Shown here piece after piece: positions 54,201-61,514 of a stretch of 64,000 nt of DNA. The stretch's first letter is position 1, and the number at the start of each line of letters is the position of its first letter. The stretch comes from Escherichia coli (GTDB lineage: Bacteria > Pseudomonadota > Gammaproteobacteria > Enterobacterales > Enterobacteriaceae). A program made the position numbers and the translations under genes. The notes under the pieces were generated by a model that saw only the letters and a program-made list of their open reading frames with translations, was not told where the DNA came from and ran no database searches. The stretch lies in assembly GCF_003018255.1 (NCBI RefSeq), contig NZ_CP027440.1. One strand, given 5' to 3'.

Positions 54201-56747
54201 TTGTACCTCTATATTGAGACTCTGAAACAGAGACTGGATGCCATAAATCAATTGCGTGTGGATCGCGCGCTTGCTGCTATGGGGCCTGCATTCCAACAGG
54301 TCTACAGTCTACTGCCGACATTGTTGCACTATCACCATCCGCTAATGCCGGGTTACCTTGATGGTAACGTTCCCAAAGGCATTTGCCTTTACACGCCTGA
54401 TGAAACTCAACGCCACTACCTGAACGAGCTTGAACTGTATCGTGGAATGTCAGTACAGGATCCGCCGAAAGGTGAGCTTCCAATTACTGGTGTATACACC
54501 ATGGGCAGCACCTCGTCCGTAGGGCAAAGTTGTTCCTCTGACCTGGATATCTGGGTCTGTCATCAATCCTGGCTCGATAGCGAAGAGCGCCAGTTACTAC
54601 AACGTAAATGCAGCCTGCTGGAAAGCTGGGCCGCCTCGCTGGGCGTGGAAGTTAGCTTCTTCCTGATTGATGAAAATCGCTTCCGTCATAATGAAAGCGG
54701 CAGCCTGGGGGGCGAAGATTGTGGCTCCACCCAGCATATACTGCTGCTTGACGAATTTTACCGTACCGCCGTGCGTCTCGCTGGTAAGCGTATTCTGTGG
54801 AATATGGTGCCGTGCGACGAAGAAGAGCATTACGACGACTATGTGATGACGCTTTACGCGCAGGGCGTGCTGACGCCAAATGAATGGCTGGATCTCGGTG
54901 GCTTAAGCTCGCTTTCTGCTGAAGAGTACTTTGGTGCCAGCCTTTGGCAGCTCTACAAGAGTATCGATTCCCCATACAAAGCGGTGCTGAAAACACTGCT
55001 GCTGGAAGCCTATTCCTGGGAATACCCGAACCCACGTCTGCTGGCGAAAGATATCAAACAGCGTTTGCACGACGGCGAGATTGTGTCGTTTGGCCTCGAT
55101 CCTTACTGCATGATGCTGGAGCGTGTTACTGAATACCTGACGGCGATTGAAGATTTCACTCGTCTGGATTTAGTACGCCGCTGCTTCTATTTAAAAGTGT
55201 GCGAAAAACTCAGCCGTGAACGCGCCTGCGTAGGCTGGCGTCGTGAAGTGCTAACCCAGTTAGTGAAAGAGTGGGAATGGGACGATGCTCGTCTGGCAAT
55301 GCTCGATAACCGCGCTAACTGGAAGATTGATCAGGTACGTGAGGCGCACAACGAGTTGCTCGACGCGATGATGCAGAGCTACCGTAATCTGATTCGCTTT
55401 GCGCGCCGCAATAACCTTAGCGTCTCCGCCAGCCCACAGGATATTGGCGTACTGACGCGTAAACTGTATGCCGCGTTTGAAGCGTTACCGGGTAAAGTGA
55501 CGCTGGTAAACCCGCAGATTTCGCCCGATCTCTCGGAACCGAATCTGACCTTTATTTATGTGCCGCCGGGCCGGGCTAACCGTTCAGGTTGGTATCTGTA
55601 TAACCGCGCGCCAAATATTGAGTCGATCATCAGCCATCAGCCGCTGGAATATAACCGTTACCTGAATAAACTGGTGGCGTGGGCATGGTTTAACGGCCTG
55701 CTGACCTCGCGTACCCGCTTGTATATTAAAGGCAACGGCATTGTCGATTTGCCTAAGTTGCAGGAGATGGTCGCCGATGTGTCACACCATTTCCCGCTGC
55801 GCCTGCCTGCACCGACGCCAAAAGCGCTCTACAGCCCGTGTGAAATTCGCCATCTGGCGATTATCGTTAACCTGGAATATGACCCGACAGCTGCGTTCCG
55901 CAATCAGGTGGTGCATTTTGATTTCCGTAAGCTGGACGTCTTCAGCTTTGGCGAGAATCAAAATTGCCTGGTAGGTAGCGTGGACCTGCTGTACCGCAAC
56001 TCGTGGAACGAAGTGCGTACGCTGCACTTCAACGGCGAGCAGTCGATGATCGAAGCCCTGAAAACCATTCTCGGTAAAATGCATCAGGACGCCGCACCGC
56101 CAGATAGCGTGGAAGTCTTCTGCTACAGCCAGCATCTGCGCGGATTAATCCGTACTCGCGTGCAGCAACTGGTTTCTGAGTGCATTGAACTGCGTCTTTC
56201 CAGCACCCGCCAGGAAACCGGGCGCTTCAAGGCGCTGCGCGTTTCTGGTCAAACCTGGGGCTTATTCTTCGAACGCCTGAATGTATCGGTACAGAAACTA
56301 GAAAATGCCATCGAGTTTTATGGCGCTATTTCGCATAACAAACTGCACGGCCTGTCAGTGCAGGTTGAAACCAATCACGTCAAATTACCGGCGGTGGTGG
56401 ACGGCTTTGCCAGCGAAGGGATCATCCAGTTCTTCTTCGAAGAAACGCAAGACGAGAATGGCTTTAATATCTACATTCTCGACGAAAGCAACCGGGTTGA
56501 GGTGTATCACCACTGCGAAGGCAGCAAAGAGGAGCTGGTGCGTGACGTCAGTCGCTTCTACTCGTCATCGCACGACCGTTTTACCTACGGCTCAAGCTTC
56601 ATCAACTTCAACCTGCCGCAGTTCTATCAGATTGTGAAGGTTGATGGTCGTGAACAGGTGATTCCGTTCCGCACCAAATCGATTGGCAACATGCCGCCTG
56701 CCAATCAGGATCACGACACGCCGCTATTACAGCAGTATTTTTCGTGA
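54201..56747 (+). CDS. cyaA: adenylate cyclase (class I)
   Basis: 848-aa [38 protein letters not shown]; start per ORF track (non-ATG, as I recall for cyaA). Confidence 0.95.
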
Positions 56748-56786
56748 TGAGCGTGCCGGAAAGCGAGGCTTATCCGGCATGCAATC

Positions 56787-57107
56787 TTAGCGGAAACTGA
56801 CTGTTTCACCCGCTTGCTGCGTTGCCGCCTGTTCCAGCAAATCCCAGAAGGTTTCGCCGCTACGATCGCAAATCCACTCATCGCCTTTCAGATCAAAATG
56901 GTAGCCGCCCTGTTTGGTTGCCAGCCATACCTGGTGCAGCGGTTCCTGGCGGTTGATAATGATTTTGCTCCCGTTTTCAAAGGTAATGGTCAGTACACCG
57001 CCGTTGATTTCGCAGTCGATATCGCTATCGCCATCCCAGTCGTCCAGACGCTCTTCAATGGTCAGCCACAGTTGATCAGCCAGGCGATGAAATTCACTGT
57101 CGTTCAT
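56787..57107 (-). CDS. cyaY: frataxin homolog CyaY
   Basis: 106-aa acidic [66 protein letters not shown]. Confidence 0.95.
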
Positions 57108-57154
57108 TGTTGTATCCTGTTTTTAAGTGATGGCGGCAGTATAGCGGCATGGGG

Positions 57155-59182
57155 TCAGAGCTTCAAAGTTTGCTCAATGTCTGGTGTTTTGTGGCACTCT
57201 TCCTCCGTCGTCAAGATGATGATGTCATCATTGGATGAAAACATGTTCTGATCCAGATTACGTGTCCTGGCCGGACAGGGCGATGCGGTTCGATAAAGTT
57301 GGCTACCGATCCAGGTATAAACATAGCGATTGTCATAAGCGAAACGTTCGGTGGTTTTCAATGGTCCATCAATAGCAAAAATTTGAATATCATCGCGTAA
57401 ACGGGAAGAGCGCATAAAGTAACCATGGCCTTTCCCGGCGTTAATCCGTTGTTTCAGGAAAGGTGCAGAAGAGTCGAGCGTTATTATTTCCAGGGTGTCT
57501 TCACCAAAAGGAGACAATTTCGCAATGTACAGATGATTTTTGTACTGCGCGACACGATCGGTGATGGGATGAAATGCTTTCGGGTCAATATCGGGGAGTT
57601 TCTCCCATTGACTCCATTGCTGGTCTGTAGAGCGAAGCTTACGCCAGCTAACATCGGTTTCGCCGACGAGAAAAGAGCCTTCGCCATCAGAATATTGAGC
57701 AATGTTAACGGATGAGTTATAGGGGATTCCCGTTGGAATAAACGCACCATCCTCAAGAAGTCTGCCGTCAAGCTCACCACTACGGTAGTTTGCCCAATAG
57801 CCATATCCTGAATCTTTGGTTTTCCATTTCACCCGCACGGCTTTGGTATTGGGAGTTGGGTAGCGCCAAAGCTGTGAGCCATCGAATGCGTAAACATAAC
57901 GATCGTCGTGTGCATACCATTTCTTGTAATGGGGGCTATCGCTAAGGTGAGCCTCATGCTCGTCAGGAACACGATAATCCATCAGGATAAGCGGCCCGGA
58001 AGAATCGAATACCTGGAGGCCATCTTCTTCTTCACCATCAGCTGGTAATTTGGTCAATAAATAGCCGTGAGTTCTTCCCGCGTTAAAGCGTTTATCTATC
58101 ACCAAACCAGGATTATCCAGTGTGACGATATTTAGCCTATTTTCGCCAAATCCCGTTTTTTTGATGGTGTACAGCTTGTCCTGATACTGAGCAACGGTAT
58201 TACTAAGAGGATGAAATTGTTCTGGATCGAGGCCGGGTAGGACTTCTTGCTGGCATTCTGGCCCTTTGCGCCATGAAACAGAGTGTTCCTGCAAAGTGAA
58301 CGCCGCGCAGCTATTTGCCCTATCTTTGTCCAGATTTCCCTGATTCAGCACCTTCCGGTGCAGGCCGCTTTTATCTCGCCAGGTTAATAACGAACCGGGC
58401 ATCCAGCGTACGACAGTAAATGTCTCTGGGTCGGCTTTAAGCTGTTCGCCATTGATTATGATTTTGGTCCGTGTACGGGCTAACGTATCCCAGGGGCCAA
58501 ATGGTACGGCAACGCAGGGGTTAAACGTGGTGGAAAACTTTCCTCGCTGATCCCAGGACTTCTGCGCCAGCACACGGAAACTCTCGGGGTCAGCGAGGCG
58601 ATGTCCATCGACATATAAGAAATTAGCGTCACGTAATATCAGCCCCAGAAAGTCAGGTTTCCAGGGGGAACGGAATTTCACCTGATGCAGCGTTTTAATA
58701 TCTAGACTATTTTCTCCGCCATTGTCATCGGTGCGCGTGCCTTCAAAATAGAGACTGTGTTTATCTGCGGCAAAATCACCCCATGCCTTGAACGAGGCGA
58801 CATCGACGGGAGGTTTGTCTGGCGGGTTTTGCACAACTTCACCCGCGTAGAGGATATAGCGACCATCGCTATGCCAGGAGTAATGAGGATACCAGGCCTG
58901 TGCGCCTTCATAGAGGTAGTCGGTTGTCAGATCAGTCAGAGGAGGTACTTTATCCCATTTGTCTAGTGTTGTCGGGTCTATTAATAAATTGGGTAAACGG
59001 CGCAAACTTTTGTAATTCACGTCAGGAAGAGAAAGATTTGTTTCTTTATAAGGGCGCAGGTATACCACGCCTTTTCCCTGTTTCTGGTAAATATTATGTT
59101 CAGGCGCGGAAAGCCGACATCCCCATGCCGACGATAAAAACAACGAACAAGACAACAAACAAACCACATTGCGAAAGTGCAT
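57155..59182 (-). CDS. secreted protein of about 675 aa built from DKNYY-like repeats (accessory; function unknown)
   Basis: ORF 57155..59212 (685 aa from an upstream GTG); likely ATG at 59182 preceded by AGGA; N-terminus MHFRNVVCLLSCSLFLSSAWGC is signal-peptide-like; recurring motifs of the type DxxxLYxxG...ADPxxF (DKHSLYFEG, DANFLYVDGHRLADPESF, GEQLKADPETF, DDRYVYAFDGSQL, DNRYVYTWIGSQL); Trp/Tyr-rich; family assignment unverified. Confidence 0.7.
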   Translation of the reverse strand: MHFRNVVCLLSCSLFLSSAWGCRLSAPEHNIYQKQGKGVVYLRPYKETNLSLPDVNYKSLRRLPNLLIDPTTLDKWDKVPPLTDLTTDYLYEGAQAWYPHYSWHSDGRYILYAGEVVQNPPDKPPVDVASFKAWGDFAADKHSLYFEGTRTDDNGGENSLDIKTLHQVKFRSPWKPDFLGLILRDANFLYVDGHRLADPESFRVLAQKSWDQRGKFSTTFNPCVAVPFGPWDTLARTRTKIIINGEQLKADPETFTVVRWMPGSLLTWRDKSGLHRKVLNQGNLDKDRANSCAAFTLQEHSVSWRKGPECQQEVLPGLDPEQFHPLSNTVAQYQDKLYTIKKTGFGENRLNIVTLDNPGLVIDKRFNAGRTHGYLLTKLPADGEEEDGLQVFDSSGPLILMDYRVPDEHEAHLSDSPHYKKWYAHDDRYVYAFDGSQLWRYPTPNTKAVRVKWKTKDSGYGYWANYRSGELDGRLLEDGAFIPTGIPYNSSVNIAQYSDGEGSFLVGETDVSWRKLRSTDQQWSQWEKLPDIDPKAFHPITDRVAQYKNHLYIAKLSPFGEDTLEIITLDSSAPFLKQRINAGKGHGYFMRSSRLRDDIQIFAIDGPLKTTERFAYDNRYVYTWIGSQLYRTASPCPARTRNLDQNMFSSNDDIIILTTEEECHKTPDIEQTLKL

Positions 59183-59300
59183 AAAGCCATCCTGGCGCGA
59201 GGTGTTGATCACGAAACTGCTAGCAGAACATAAATCCTCACAAGTAAGCGTAACTCTCGCAGCAAATCGTCACTTTTCAGAATCCATAAAGGTCATCGCT
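59121..59300 (-). repeat. copy A of a duplicated promoter/leader module (5' region of the DKNYY-repeat gene)
   Basis: About 85-90% identical by eye to 60208-60377; includes RBS, ATG and first 13 codons (MHFRNVVCLLSCS). Confidence 0.8.
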
Positions 59301-59553
59301 ATTTTCTGATAGTTGCTGGAATAAACGTGATATTTTCATTCACGATATAAACACAATCCCGGAACTGCCCCATAGTACGGCTAATAGCATAAAAATATTC
59401 CGGATTGACCCCTGGAAGGGAGGCAATGTGGGATTCCGCCCCCCGTTGCCTTCTTTATTGTCTTTCACGAGTTGTACCCAGGTTCCACCACGGGTATCTA
59501 ACATTCGCCACATTATTACGCTTTCTGCCGAACGTGATTTTTATAGAAATCTA

Positions 59554-60108
59554 TCAATTCATTTTCCCTGTACCATAAAGTTTATCCTTCACATCCTGCC
59601 GAACGCGGGTCTTGTACCCCCCGTTGTGAAGATCTTCATACGGAGAAAAAGAATCTTTACTCCACCCCAGCAACACTTTATCGCCAGGCATAAAATGCAC
59701 GTGCAGGTAATTTTCTCCCCATTCTCTTTTTGGGAGAGGTAACGTCATATTGCGTTTCTCCAGACGCATTCCAGCATTATACTGTGTACGAGTAGTACTT
59801 AATGTCCATATAACCTCTGCCGTATCCCCACTGACATCACCGCAACAGGTGATTGAACCGCCACCATTCGCAAAAGCATTCGCGCCCGCCACGCCGTTAA
59901 CACTGAATCCCAGTATCGGACGGTCAATTTCACTGTGGATTTCCAGTATCACTCCACCTCTTGGTCCTCCCCATACTGCCTGTCCTATATTCCACAACAC
60001 GACCAGTACTGGAACGACAATTAACGTCCGCCATACCCAGCGCCCCCAGCGGGCATAACCGCGCGTAAGCTTTTGGTCAAATTTTTCCAGTTGGGTAAAT
60101 AGCCCCAT
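59554..60108 (-). CDS. small membrane-anchored protein, DUF3304-like (tentative; accessory)
   Basis: 184-aa ORF; basic N-terminus then one TM helix (TLIVVPVLVVLWNIGQAVWG); Gly-rich segment with CC pair (GVAGANAFANGGGSITCCGDVSGD); RBS gagaagaggga upstream; DUF3304 assignment is from memory and unverified. Confidence 0.6.
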   Translation of the reverse strand: MGLFTQLEKFDQKLTRGYARWGRWVWRTLIVVPVLVVLWNIGQAVWGGPRGGVILEIHSEIDRPILGFSVNGVAGANAFANGGGSITCCGDVSGDTAEVIWTLSTTRTQYNAGMRLEKRNMTLPLPKREWGENYLHVHFMPGDKVLLGWSKDSFSPYEDLHNGGYKTRVRQDVKDKLYGTGKMN

Positions 60109-60150
60109 CGATTTTATTCCCTCTTCTCACCTGGTTGGCAAAGTTGCACG

Positions 60151-60261
60151 TCACTGGCGACTAAGGTCAGACAACGAAATTTCGTGGTACGCCACTCTCT
60201 TAAAAGTCCCATGCAGGCGATAAGAACAAGACAACAAACAAACCACATTGCGATAGTGCAT
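60151..60261 (-). pseudogene. 36-codon chimeric fragment: 5' end of a paralog of the DKNYY-repeat gene, truncated
   Basis: MHYRNVVCLLSCSYRLHGTFKRVAYHEISLSDLSRQ; first 13 residues match the 57155..59182 protein (one F/Y difference), then diverges and stops 42 nt before the DUF3304-like start. Confidence 0.6.
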
Positions 60262-60377
60262 AAAGCCATCCTGGCGCGAGGTGCCGATCACGAAACTACC
60301 AGCAAAACATAAATCGCCACGTGTAAGCGTTATACTCGCAGCATTTCCTCACTTTTCAGACTTCATAAAGAGTCGCT
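60208..60377 (-). repeat. copy B of the duplicated promoter/leader module
   Basis: Direct repeat of 59121-59300 with a 7-9 bp indel and scattered substitutions; lies back-to-back with the yifL upstream region. Confidence 0.8.
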
Positions 60378-60449
60378 AAACGCTTGCTTTTACGCCTTCT
60401 CCTGCGATGATAGAAAGCAGAAAGCGATGAACTTTACAGGCAATCCATA

Positions 60450-60653
60450 ATGAAAAACGTGTTTAAGGCACTCACTGTATTACTTACTCTCTTCAGCCTG
60501 ACGGGCTGCGGTCTGAAAGGTCCGCTCTATTTCCCGCCTGCAGATAAAAACGCACCGCCGCCGACCAAACCGGTAGAGATGCAAACGCAATCCACGGTGC
60601 CGGATAAAAACGACCGCGCCACTGGCGATGGTCCATCCCAGGTGAATTACTAA
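60450..60653 (+). CDS. yifL: small lipoprotein YifL
   Basis: 67-aa ORF MKNVFKALTVLLTLFSLTGCGLKGPLYFPP with lipobox LTGC. Confidence 0.9.
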   Translation: MKNVFKALTVLLTLFSLTGCGLKGPLYFPPADKNAPPPTKPVEMQTQSTVPDKNDRATGDGPSQVNY

Positions 60654-60689
60654 AAGTCAGTTTCTGTACCCGCGTGATTGGAGTAAATG

Positions 60690-61514
60690 ATGCAGTTCTC
60701 GAAAATGCATGGCCTTGGCAACGATTTTATGGTCGTCGACGCGGTAACGCAGAATGTCTTTTTTTCACCGGAGCTGATTCGTCGCCTGGCGGATCGGCAC
60801 CTGGGGGTAGGGTTTGACCAGCTGCTGGTGGTTGAGCCGCCGTATGATCCTGAACTGGATTTTCACTATCGCATTTTCAATGCTGATGGCAGTGAAGTGG
60901 CGCAGTGCGGCAACGGTGCGCGCTGCTTTGCCCGTTTTGTGCGCCTGAAAGGGCTGACTAATAAGCGCGATATCCGCGTCAGCACCGCCAACGGGCGGAT
61001 GGTTCTGACCGTCACCGATGATGATCTGGTCCGCGTAAATATGGGCGAACCCAACTTCGAACCTTCCGCCGTGCCGTTTCGCGCTAACAAAGCGGAAAAG
61101 ACCTATATTATGCGCGCCGCCGAGCAGACAATCTTATGCGGCGTGGTGTCGATGGGAAATCCGCATTGCGTGATTCAGGTCGATGATGTCGATACCGCGG
61201 CGGTAGAAACGCTTGGTCCTGTTCTGGAAAGCCACGAACGTTTCCCGGAGCGCGCCAATATCGGTTTTATGCAAGTGGTTAAGCGCGAGCATATTCGTTT
61301 ACGCGTTTATGAGCGTGGGGCAGGAGAAACCCAGGCCTGCGGCAGCGGCGCGTGTGCGGCGGTTGCAGTAGGGATTCAGCAAGGTTTGCTGGCCGAAGAA
61401 GTACGCGTGGAACTCCCCGGCGGTCGTCTTGATATCGCCTGGAAAGGTCCGGGTCACCCGTTATATATGACTGGCCCGGCGGTACATGTCTACGACGGAT
61501 TTATTCATCTATGA
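60690..61514 (+). CDS. dapF: diaminopimelate epimerase
   Basis: 274 aa from [25 protein letters not shown] with catalytic Cys motifs (GNGARC, CGSGACA). Confidence 0.95.

What the first reader, a model, noticed from the sequence alone, without database searches (positions are those of the whole stretch)
60151..60261. Chimeric 36-codon upstream ORF ahead of the DUF3304-like gene
The fragment MHYRNVVCLLSCSYRLHGTFKRVAYHEISLSDLSRQ starts exactly like the DKNYY-repeat protein, then leaves that reading frame's homology and terminates 42 nt upstream of the DUF3304-like start codon. It may be a non-functional remnant, a translated upstream ORF that couples to or regulates the downstream gene, or a tiny membrane peptide in its own right, since the first 13 residues are hydrophobic. 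I vaguely recall a small annotated ORF (yzcX) in this gap in K-12 and cannot tell whether it corresponds to this fragment.
Basis: partly seen in the sequence, partly recalled or inferred. Interest (0 to 1): 0.45.

Follow-up and report, generated by a model that had tools for sequence, protein, structure and literature searches.

The report
Gene-fusion scar before orphan immunity gene
The 36-codon ORF is real but looks like an evolutionary scar: the start of an old lipoprotein gene welded to the last ten codons of a type VI secretion adaptor gene, left when a stray anti-toxin (immunity) gene was inserted here; it is an ordinary pseudogene remnant, not a new small protein.

Summary
The ORF exists as described: minus strand, 60261→60151, TGA 42 nt before the DUF3304 ATG.

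- **Start.** Its start codon, Shine-Dalgarno sequence and upstream flank are the 5' end of the ancestral DKNYY-like lipoprotein gene. That gene still starts at this same ATG, 185-188 nt from lptM, in E. albertii, Salmonella and some E. coli.
- **Break.** Homology stops one codon before the lipobox cysteine.
- **Tail.** It is joined to two scraps of a T6SS DUF4123 (Tla1-like) adaptor gene. The last ten codons (EISLSDLSRQ) and the stop codon are that gene's own end, and the 42-nt spacer is the native DUF4123–DUF3304 spacer.
- **Downstream.** An intact DUF3304 (Tli1-like) gene follows (dN/dS 0.03-0.33), then a tle1 5' stub.

So an orphan immunity cassette sits inside the first DKNYY gene, in 1073 of 5426 complete E. 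coli genomes.

The 36-codon frame depends on a 7-nt deletion found in about 128 genomes. Five sampled undeleted loci stop at codon 22; K-12 stops at codon 17. I found no leader structure, terminator or Rfam match, and the peptide has no transmembrane-length segment.

yzcX is a different ORF, 161 aa on the opposite strand.

Verdict: inert scar, possibly donating a promoter.

The parts
60151..60261 (-). The 36-codon chimeric ORF itself (ATG 60261-60259, TGA 60153-60151).
60262..60378 (-). Retained 5' flank of the ancestral DKNYY-like lipoprotein gene (upstream part of repeat copy 1), with SD AGGA at 60269-60272. A promoter presumably lies here but was not mapped. Further upstream is the divergent lptM control region.
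   Evidence: 98% identical to the K-12 gap. Aligned with E. albertii and Salmonella intergenic regions. 88% repeat with 59183-59291. SD pairing -6.5 kcal/mol.
60207..60261 (-). DKNYY-derived coding stub: signal-peptide codons 1-13 in frame, a 7-nt deletion between 60224 and 60223, then out-of-frame DKNYY sequence up to the codon before the lipobox Cys.
   Evidence: Intact orthologues read MHYRNVVCLLSCSLFLSSAWGC.
60180..60206 (-). Scrap of a T6SS DUF4123 (Tla1-like adaptor) gene, nt 577-603 (LLREWRTMK region), read out of frame in the ORF.
   Evidence: 25/27 identity to L004 DUF4123.
60151..60183 (-). 3' end of the DUF4123 gene: last 10 codons EISLSDLSRQ plus its TGA, in frame with the ORF. Joined to the previous scrap by a 190-nt internal deletion at a GAAA microhomology (60180-60183).
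   Evidence: L004 DUF4123 ends ...KRNEISLSDLSRQ*.
60109..60150 (-). Native DUF4123-DUF3304 intergenic spacer (43 nt in T6SS loci, 42 here) carrying the DUF3304 SD (GAGGG).
   Evidence: 71/74 identity across the tail plus spacer. SD pairing -6.3 kcal/mol.
59554..60108 (-). Intact orphan DUF3304 gene (Tli1-like candidate immunity protein, 184 aa).
   Evidence: Pfam DUF3304 E = 5.8e-4. 92% nt identity to the DUF3304 gene of a vgrG-DUF4123-DUF3304-DUF2235 module. Intact in 8/8 loci, dN/dS 0.03-0.33.
59390..59553 (-). DUF3304-tle1 spacer plus a degraded 5' stub of a tle1 (DUF2235 phospholipase effector) gene. The ORF 59513-59340 begins MWRMLDTRGG...GN.GR...F.G..RNI.
   Evidence: About 84% nt identity over 59550-59436 to DUF2235 genes. 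Position confirmed in L012. N-terminal peptide match.
59128..59320 (-). Second copy of the DKNYY 5' cassette (about -105 to codon 21), here attached to the full-length gene.
57155..59182 (-). Full-length DKNYY-like lipoprotein gene (675 aa from the ATG; PGAP aa from GTG 59212).
60450..60653 (+). lptM (yifL), the divergent neighbour. Its ATG lies 188 nt from the fragment's ATG.
   Evidence: Spacing of 185-188 nt in other genera, 188 nt in E. coli GN04979.

Best explanation
The ORF is a by-product of gene decay, not a gene.

**Ancestral state.** A DKNYY-like lipoprotein gene was transcribed divergently from lptM and started at this very ATG.

**The event.** In one E. coli lineage an ~800-bp piece of a T6SS auxiliary module (vgrG - DUF4123/tla1 - DUF3304/tli1 - tle1) became fixed inside that gene, one codon before the lipobox cysteine. 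The DKNYY 5' cassette was duplicated in the process.

**What survived.** Only the immunity-type DUF3304 gene stayed intact. The adaptor gene was reduced to two scraps and the effector gene to a 5' stub.

**How the 36-codon frame arose.** In most carriers sampled, the old start codon now opens a 22-codon ORF, a signal peptide without its Cys. In the window's allele a 7-nt deletion shifts the frame. The sampled undeleted allele L007 has a TTGTTC-N-TTGTTC tandem at that site. Ribosomes starting at the old ATG would therefore read into the frame of the DUF4123 tail and stop at its native TGA.

**Shown and inferred.** Shown here: the ancestry of every segment, the breakpoints, the population distribution, and the lack of conservation of the frame. 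Inferred: the stub keeps a working promoter and SD, so it is probably transcribed and perhaps translated; its only likely contribution is to supply transcription to the orphan DUF3304 gene and the DKNYY gene behind it; and the peptide itself has no function.
For: **Position and ancestry of the start.**
- The same ATG is the annotated start of intact DKNYY-like genes, and all of them encode ...AWGC: 188 nt from lptM in E. albertii and in E. coli GN04979, 185 nt in Salmonella.
- K-12 keeps the same 225 nt at 98% identity and then continues as a collapsed pseudogene, which PGAP labels 'DKNYY family protein; frameshifted; internal stop'.

**Ancestry of the tail.**
- The last 10 codons, the stop and the 42-nt spacer match the DUF4123 3' end and its spacer at 71/74. 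A further 27 nt match DUF4123 nt 577-603.
- The three genes lie in that order in T6SS loci L004, L005 and L012.
- A tle1 stub lies downstream of DUF3304.

**The frame is not conserved.**
- It is 36 codons only in the window and L006, 22 codons in five sampled undeleted loci, and 17 in K-12.
- About 128 genomes carry the deletion allele, against 1073 with the junction.

**The neighbouring gene is under selection.**
- DUF3304 is intact in 8 of 8 loci with dN/dS 0.03-0.33.

**No sign of a regulatory device or a membrane peptide.**
- Leader folds score z = +0.8. No terminator was found and no Rfam family matched.
- The peptide has no transmembrane-length hydrophobic run.
- PGAP annotates nothing here in 8 carrier genomes.

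**Literature.**
- DUF3304 is the Tli1 immunity domain (PMC13133936).
- Orphan immunity genes are known in E. coli (PMC6730261).
Against: - No expression data could be found for this region. Neither transcription from the stub nor its lack of function is demonstrated.
- No sigma-70 consensus promoter was detected by the simple scan. The promoter-donation step is therefore inference only.
- The stub keeps a strong SD and an ATG, so it may well be translated, and a role for that translation cannot be excluded.
- The ORF's stop coincides with the native DUF4123 stop. That could matter for DUF3304 translation.
Confidence: 0.85

Rival explanations
1. Translated upstream ORF that tunes DUF3304 expression. 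Ribosomes starting at the old DKNYY ATG terminate at the native DUF4123 stop 42 nt upstream and reinitiate, or open the mRNA, at the DUF3304 SD. On this reading the 7-nt deletion allele would be an adaptive repair of the native termination geometry.
For: - Intact SD and ATG.
- In the deletion allele the stop is exactly the DUF4123 stop, with the native spacer.
- No terminator lies between the ORF and DUF3304.
Against: - The undeleted allele, which stops 91-92 nt upstream in the five such loci sampled, is far commoner: about 128 of 1073 carriers have the deletion.
- No leader structure needs to be melted: z = +0.8 in both alleles.
- DUF3304 has its own SD at -6.3 kcal/mol.
- 42 nt is long for termination-reinitiation coupling.
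- The deletion lies where an undeleted allele has a slippage-prone 7-nt tandem repeat, so no selection is needed to explain it.
Confidence: 0.08
2. A small membrane or secreted peptide with a function of its own.
For: - The N-terminus derives from a lipoprotein signal peptide.
- Some automatic annotations call it a hypothetical protein (CE10_4455, H299).
Against: - The window peptide has only 9 consecutive uncharged residues and a best 19-residue hydropathy of 0.71.
- The sequence after residue 13 is out-of-frame DKNYY DNA, out-of-frame DUF4123 DNA and a 10-residue adaptor tail.
- Length and C-terminus differ between strains.
- PGAP does not annotate it.
Confidence: 0.03
3. It is the window's version of the K-12 gene yzcX.
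For: yzcX is annotated in the same cyaY-lptM gap in K-12.
Against: - The exact YZCX_ECOLI sequence is the 161-aa plus-strand ORF at L001 499-984.
- That ORF is antisense to cyaY and to the DKNYY remnant.
- It is listed as divergent from cyaY.
- Strand, length and sequence all differ from the fragment.
Confidence: 0.01

Closest known systems
K-12 DKNYY-family pseudogene in the cyaY-lptM gap (PGAP: 'DKNYY family protein; frameshifted; internal stop; incomplete').
   Same: Orthologous 5' stub: the same ATG 188 nt from lptM, 98% identical over 225 nt, and the same first 11 codons.
   Different: In K-12 the stub continues into more DKNYY 5' sequence, fused by a large deletion to the gene's 3' end. 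In the window it is cut at codon 21 and fused to T6SS-derived DNA followed by an intact DUF3304 gene.
Orphan T6SS immunity genes: immunity genes kept after loss of the cognate effector (Kirchberger 2017 and Ma 2017 as reviewed in PMC6730261; Tli1/DUF3304 immunity to Tle1, PMC13133936).
   Same: An intact DUF3304 gene flanked by decayed adaptor (DUF4123) and effector (tle1) stubs and under purifying selection.
   Different: - It sits in a core-genome intergenic site inside another gene's 5' end, not within a T6SS cluster.
- Immunity activity is untested.
- It scores far below the NCBIfam Tli1a cut-off.
Bacterial leader peptides and translationally coupled upstream ORFs (for example tnaC, pheL, mgtL; from general knowledge).
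   Same: A short ORF with a good SD upstream of a gene on the same strand.
   Different: - No conserved peptide.
- No attenuator or terminator structure.
- No overlap or close spacing with the downstream start.
- The frame differs between strains.
yzcX (YZCX_ECOLI).
   Same: Lies in the same intergenic neighbourhood in K-12.
   Different: Opposite strand, 161 aa, overlaps the cyaY 5' half, unrelated sequence.

Membership tests
5' remnant (pseudogene stub) of a DKNYY-like lipoprotein gene | Nucleotide homology to the 5' end of intact family genes, including the upstream flank. | tested here: met
   147-nt repeat at 88%. Alignments.
5' remnant (pseudogene stub) of a DKNYY-like lipoprotein gene | Orthologous position: same start codon relative to lptM as intact genes in relatives. 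| tested here: met
   188 nt in the window, E. albertii and E. coli GN04979; 185 nt in Salmonella.
5' remnant (pseudogene stub) of a DKNYY-like lipoprotein gene | Reading frame disrupted or truncated relative to the intact gene. | tested here: met
   7-nt deletion, and a breakpoint one codon before the lipobox Cys.
5' remnant (pseudogene stub) of a DKNYY-like lipoprotein gene | The parent protein belongs to Pfam DKNYY (PF13644). | tested here: inconclusive
   - The 685-aa paralogue in the window has no Pfam or NCBIfam hit.
- It is 35-41% identical to a 436-aa paralogue that hits PF13644 at 1.4e-5.
- Orthologues carry precomputed PF13644 hits and the name 'DKNYY family protein'.
Remnant of a T6SS DUF4123 (Tla1-like) adaptor gene | Homology to the gene's 3' end, stop codon and downstream spacer. 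| tested here: met
   71/74 nt. The C-terminal EISLSDLSRQ* is identical. Spacer is 42 nt against 43.
Remnant of a T6SS DUF4123 (Tla1-like) adaptor gene | Synteny DUF4123 - DUF3304 - tle1, as in intact modules. | tested here: met
   L004, L005 and L012 show the order. The window has the stubs in that order.
Tli1-type (DUF3304) T6SS immunity gene, for the downstream gene | DUF3304 domain. | tested here: met
   PF11745 E = 5.8e-4, 20.7 bits, a weak hit. PGAP name 'DUF3304 domain-containing protein'.
Tli1-type (DUF3304) T6SS immunity gene, for the downstream gene | Reaches the NCBIfam Tli1a_fam curated cut-off. | tested here: not met
   19.4 bits against a cut-off of 110. It is therefore Tli1-like by context, not a member of that P. 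aeruginosa-centred model.
Tli1-type (DUF3304) T6SS immunity gene, for the downstream gene | Neutralises a Tle1 phospholipase. | not testable with these tools
   Needs a competition or co-expression assay.
Regulatory leader peptide / coupled upstream ORF | ORF length and sequence conserved among strains that carry the downstream gene. | tested here: not met
   36 codons in 2 sampled loci, 22 codons in 5. About 128 of 1073 genomes carry the 36-codon allele.
Regulatory leader peptide / coupled upstream ORF | Leader RNA structure, attenuator, or start-stop overlap. | tested here: not met
   z = +0.8. No terminator. No Rfam hit. The gap is 42 nt.
Regulatory leader peptide / coupled upstream ORF | Ribosome occupancy, and an effect of a start-codon mutation. 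| not testable with these tools
   Supplement look-ups in TSS and Ribo-seq papers returned nothing for this region.
Small membrane protein | A hydrophobic segment long enough to span the membrane. | tested here: not met
   Longest uncharged run is 9 residues. Best 19-residue Kyte-Doolittle mean is 0.71.
yzcX | Same strand and sequence as YZCX_ECOLI. | tested here: not met
   yzcX is a plus-strand 161-aa ORF.

The most novel reading that the evidence does not exclude
The stub is a working expression adaptor rather than inert DNA. The ancestral DKNYY promoter, SD and start codon drive transcription and leader translation for a captured orphan Tle1-immunity gene. In the 7-nt deletion allele, ribosomes are delivered to the native adaptor-gene stop codon 42 nt upstream of DUF3304, which would recreate the operon's original termination geometry and raise immunity-protein output.

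A broader version: the repeated cassette of promoter plus signal peptide makes the cyaY-lptM gap a recombination site that collects periplasm-directed defence genes.
Probability: 0.08. Interest if true: 0.35.

Novelty: new member of a known kind. Interest (0 to 1): 0.15.

Why it matters
For the finding itself it matters little: this is a pseudogene scar and should not be annotated as a small protein or equated with yzcX.

The useful by-products:
- **A resolved history of a variable core-genome site.** The cyaY-lptM gap holds one intact DKNYY-like gene in Salmonella, E. albertii and some E. coli. It holds a collapsed remnant in K-12-like strains. About 20% of complete E. coli genomes carry a T6SS-derived orphan DUF3304 cassette.
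- **A candidate orphan Tle1-immunity gene under purifying selection.** It could be tested for protection against Tle1-armed competitors.
- **A caution for small-ORF hunters.** An intact SD plus ATG can survive on a dead gene and can create strain-specific ORFs by frameshift.

Tried and rejected
- **Known RNA family.** Looked in 56700-60700 with Rfam at E ≤ 1: none.
- **Structured leader.** Folded both alleles: no better than shuffles.
- **Promoters and terminators.** Consensus sigma-70 and intrinsic-terminator scan of 59000-60500: none. Inspecting the conserved cassette by eye gave no -10/-35 pair conserved between copies and genera, so the promoter is not located.
- **Expression data.** Looked for K-12 TSS and ribosome-profiling evidence in the supplements of PMC4782308, 10.1101/511675, 10.1101/2021.07.02.450978 and PMC10746267. 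There were no entries for cyaY, yzcX, yifL or the coordinates, or no files were held. This is uninformative, not negative evidence.
- **Cluster artefact.** The protein-cluster look-up grouped the fragment with a 477-aa Bacteroidetes SusD-like protein. Inspection shows no relationship, so it was rejected as a clustering artefact.
- **Other species.** A scan of one genome per species for the DKNYY|DUF4123 junction found only one contig. It is binned as Collinsella but is E. coli DNA. There is therefore no evidence for the junction outside E. coli, within the limits of an exact pattern.
- **Literature.** A search for DKNYY returned nothing on this locus.

Full report
**Setting.** The window is E. 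coli chromosome: cyaA, cyaY (minus strand), then lptM(yifL)-dapF-yigA-xerC-yigB on the plus strand. Between cyaY (56787-57107) and lptM (60450-60653), all on the minus strand, lie:
- a 685-aa gene at 57155-59212;
- a 184-aa DUF3304 gene at 59554-60108;
- the fragment in question.

**Observation.** The ORF is there.
- ATG is at 60261 and TGA at 60153-60151, giving 36 codons with exactly the peptide quoted. There are 42 nt to the DUF3304 ATG at 60108.
- An in-frame GTG at 60291 would give 46 codons. The ATG is the real ancestral start: it is the annotated start in E. albertii, Salmonella and E. coli GN04979. It has an AGGA SD at 7-nt spacing with -6.5 kcal/mol anti-SD pairing, against -2.8 for the GTG. 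The GTG frame is not conserved in Salmonella.
- An ORF of this size is not remarkable in itself: there are 100 ORFs of at least 25 aa in 8 kb. What is beyond chance is the homology. A 147-nt direct repeat at 88% identity links 60224-60370 to 59145-59291, the 5' end of the 685-aa gene. It runs from about 105 nt upstream of the ATG to about codon 21, with a 7-nt gap in the fragment copy.

**Anatomy, from 5' to 3' on the minus strand.**
1. **60378-60262: the old 5' flank.**
2. **60261-60207: DKNYY-gene codons.** Codons 1-13 are in frame. A 7-nt deletion lies between 60224 and 60223. Out-of-frame DKNYY sequence then runs up to GCATGGG, one codon before the lipobox Cys of ...SSAWGC.
3. **60206-60180: a DUF4123 scrap.** These 27 nt match nt 577-603 of a T6SS DUF4123 gene at 25/27, the LLREWRTMK region, read here in another frame.
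4. **60183-60110: the DUF4123 3' end and spacer.** These 74 nt match nt 790-863 of the same gene region at 71/74. That covers the last 10 codons, the TGA and the spacer to DUF3304. The two DUF4123 pieces are joined at a 4-nt GAAA microhomology, which implies a 190-nt deletion and a change of frame.

The ORF's C-terminal EISLSDLSRQ* is therefore, residue for residue, the C-terminus of the adaptor protein (...KRNEISLSDLSRQ* in L004). Its stop codon is that gene's stop codon. The '42 nt' is the native 43-nt DUF4123-DUF3304 spacer minus one base.

**What follows the ORF.**
- The DUF3304 gene is 92% identical at the DNA level to the copy in the vgrG-DUF4123-DUF3304-DUF2235 module of strain MS14386.
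- Immediately after it, 59550-59436 matches the DUF3304-tle1 spacer and the first codons of DUF2235/tle1 genes at about 84%.
- The 57-aa ORF at 59513-59340 starts MWRMLDTRGGTWVQLVKDNKEGNGGRNPTLPPFQGSIRNI. The Tle1 N-terminus reads MWGMLDTGGGIRAQLAEDNKVGNCGREWHVGFFFDGVGRNI.
- So about 800 bp (60206 to about 59390) is a decayed T6SS effector module in which only the DUF3304 gene is intact.
- DUF3304 is the domain of Tli1 immunity proteins against Tle1 phospholipases (PMC13133936). Orphan immunity genes are a known phenomenon, including in E. coli (PMC6730261).
- The orphan gene is intact in 8 of 8 sampled loci, with dN/dS 0.03-0.33.
- Family assignment is by context plus a weak Pfam hit (E = 5.8e-4). 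It does not reach the NCBIfam Tli1a cut-off.

**Ancestral and alternative states of the locus.**
- In E. albertii, Salmonella enterica and some E. coli (GN04979), a single intact DKNYY-like lipoprotein gene starts at the same ATG, 185-188 nt from lptM, and runs to cyaY.
- In K-12 the 462-nt gap is that gene collapsed by a large internal deletion. Its first 225 nt are 98% identical to window 60225-60449. PGAP labels it a frameshifted DKNYY-family pseudogene.
- The T6SS-derived junction is present in 1073 of 5426 complete E. coli genomes, always with the same breakpoints in the 8 loci examined.
- Those loci carry one to three DKNYY-like paralogues behind the cassette. The 5' cassette is present two or three times per locus.
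- Copy 1 has the full chromosomal upstream flank and is cut at codon 21. Copy 2 is cut at -105 and has the full gene behind it. This is the layout expected from a single-crossover (Campbell-type) or unequal exchange within the cassette. That is inference, not demonstration.

**Is the 36-codon frame conserved?** No.
- From the same ATG, the window and L006 give 36 codons. L003, L007, L008, L010 and L011 give 22 codons (MHYRNVVCLLSCSLFLSSAWGF*), stopping 91-92 nt before DUF3304. K-12 gives 17.
- The difference is the 7-nt deletion. In L007 it would fall in a 7-nt tandem repeat, cTTGTTCaTTGTTCt, which is a slippage-prone context.
- A junction-spanning query puts the deletion allele in about 128 genomes. 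That figure is derived: 553 genomes cover the query in full, and 425 of them are gapped at 84.6%. It agrees with 2 of 12 full-length rows and with 128 records at ≥99% identity.
- The tail of the ORF is translated out-of-frame DKNYY DNA, out-of-frame DUF4123 DNA and ten adaptor residues.

**Tests of the functional readings.**
- *Leader or regulatory element.* RNA folds of the leader in both alleles are no more stable than shuffles, z = +0.8. There is no terminator-like site on either strand in 59000-60500 and no Rfam match. DUF3304 has its own SD at -6.3 kcal/mol.
- *Membrane peptide.* The deletion removes half of the signal-peptide h-region. The longest uncharged run is 9 residues and the best 19-residue hydropathy is 0.71.
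- *Annotation.* PGAP annotates nothing here in eight carrier genomes. Older pipelines called it a hypothetical protein in CE10 and H299.

**yzcX.** The exact YZCX_ECOLI sequence is the 161-aa plus-strand ORF at L001 499-984. It is antisense to the 5' half of cyaY and to the K-12 DKNYY remnant. A transcriptome paper lists cyaY-yzcX as a divergent pair. It is not the fragment.

**Mechanism.**
- *Shown:* the fragment is the retained 5' end of a dead gene fused to scraps of another dead gene.
- *Inferred:* the stub keeps the ancestral upstream flank, SD and ATG, and nothing resembling a terminator lies downstream. It is therefore probably still transcribed and perhaps translated. It probably supplies transcription to the same-strand orphan DUF3304 gene, which in its native context sits inside an operon and has no promoter of its own that I could identify.
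- I could not locate the promoter or find expression data.
- The residual possibility is that translation ending at the native DUF4123 stop helps DUF3304 expression in the deletion allele. I cannot exclude it but nothing supports it. I rate it about 0.08.

**Verdict.** 'Non-functional remnant' is the supported reading. The second parent of the chimera and the origin of the stop codon and spacer are now identified. The yzcX link is refuted. This is an ordinary pseudogene scar at the edge of an orphan T6SS immunity cassette. It is a new instance of known kinds of things and of low interest in itself.

Noticed in passing
window 59554-60108 (-) with flanks 60206-59390: An orphan DUF3304 (Tli1-like) gene, with decayed DUF4123 and tle1 stubs on either side, sits in the core-genome cyaY-lptM gap. 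It is present in 1073 of 5426 complete E. coli genomes and under purifying selection (dN/dS 0.03-0.33). This makes it a candidate orphan Tle1-immunity gene.
   Followed up: partly
L001 499-984 (+); window 56814-57251 (+): The K-12 gene yzcX (161 aa) is an ORF antisense to the cyaY 5' half and to the DKNYY pseudogene. Its window counterpart is a differently truncated 145-aa TTG ORF. It looks like a spurious antisense ORF rather than a real gene.
   Followed up: partly
window 57108-60449; L001, L003, L014-L018: The cyaY-lptM gap is hypervariable.
- 462 nt in K-12 (collapsed pseudogene).
- 3.3 kb in the window.
- 6.2 kb with three DKNYY-like paralogues in strain 300444.
- Two DKNYY-like genes without the T6SS block in GN04979 and strain 8178.
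- One intact gene in E. albertii.
- One intact gene plus a small DUF3021-like ORF in Salmonella.
   Followed up: partly
window 59128-59320 and 60207-60378; L003 three copies: The DKNYY 5' cassette (about -105 to codon 21) is repeated 2-3 times per locus at about 88% identity. The way the copies are truncated fits a single-crossover or unequal-exchange origin of the insertion. The cassette may act as a recombination substrate.
   Followed up: partly
window 57155-59212 (-): The 685-aa 'DKNYY' protein has no Pfam or NCBIfam match of its own. The label depends on a 436-aa paralogue (PF13644, E = 1.4e-5) and on orthologue annotations. Its function is unknown, and no literature on this E. coli locus was found.
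   Followed up: partly
L013 (JAIJJM010000270.1, 4058 bp): A contig binned in a 'Collinsella sp.' metagenome-assembled genome is E. coli cyaY-lptM locus DNA (91% to the window over 2 kb, including the junction). It is evidently mis-binned.
   Followed up: yes
window 59300-59390 (-): About 90 nt between the end of the tle1 stub and the second DKNYY cassette have no identified origin.
   Followed up: no
cluster 2 (P0018, P0019): The 90%-identity protein clustering groups the 36/46-aa fragment with an unrelated 477-aa SusD-like protein. This is a clustering artefact for very short sequences.
   Followed up: yes
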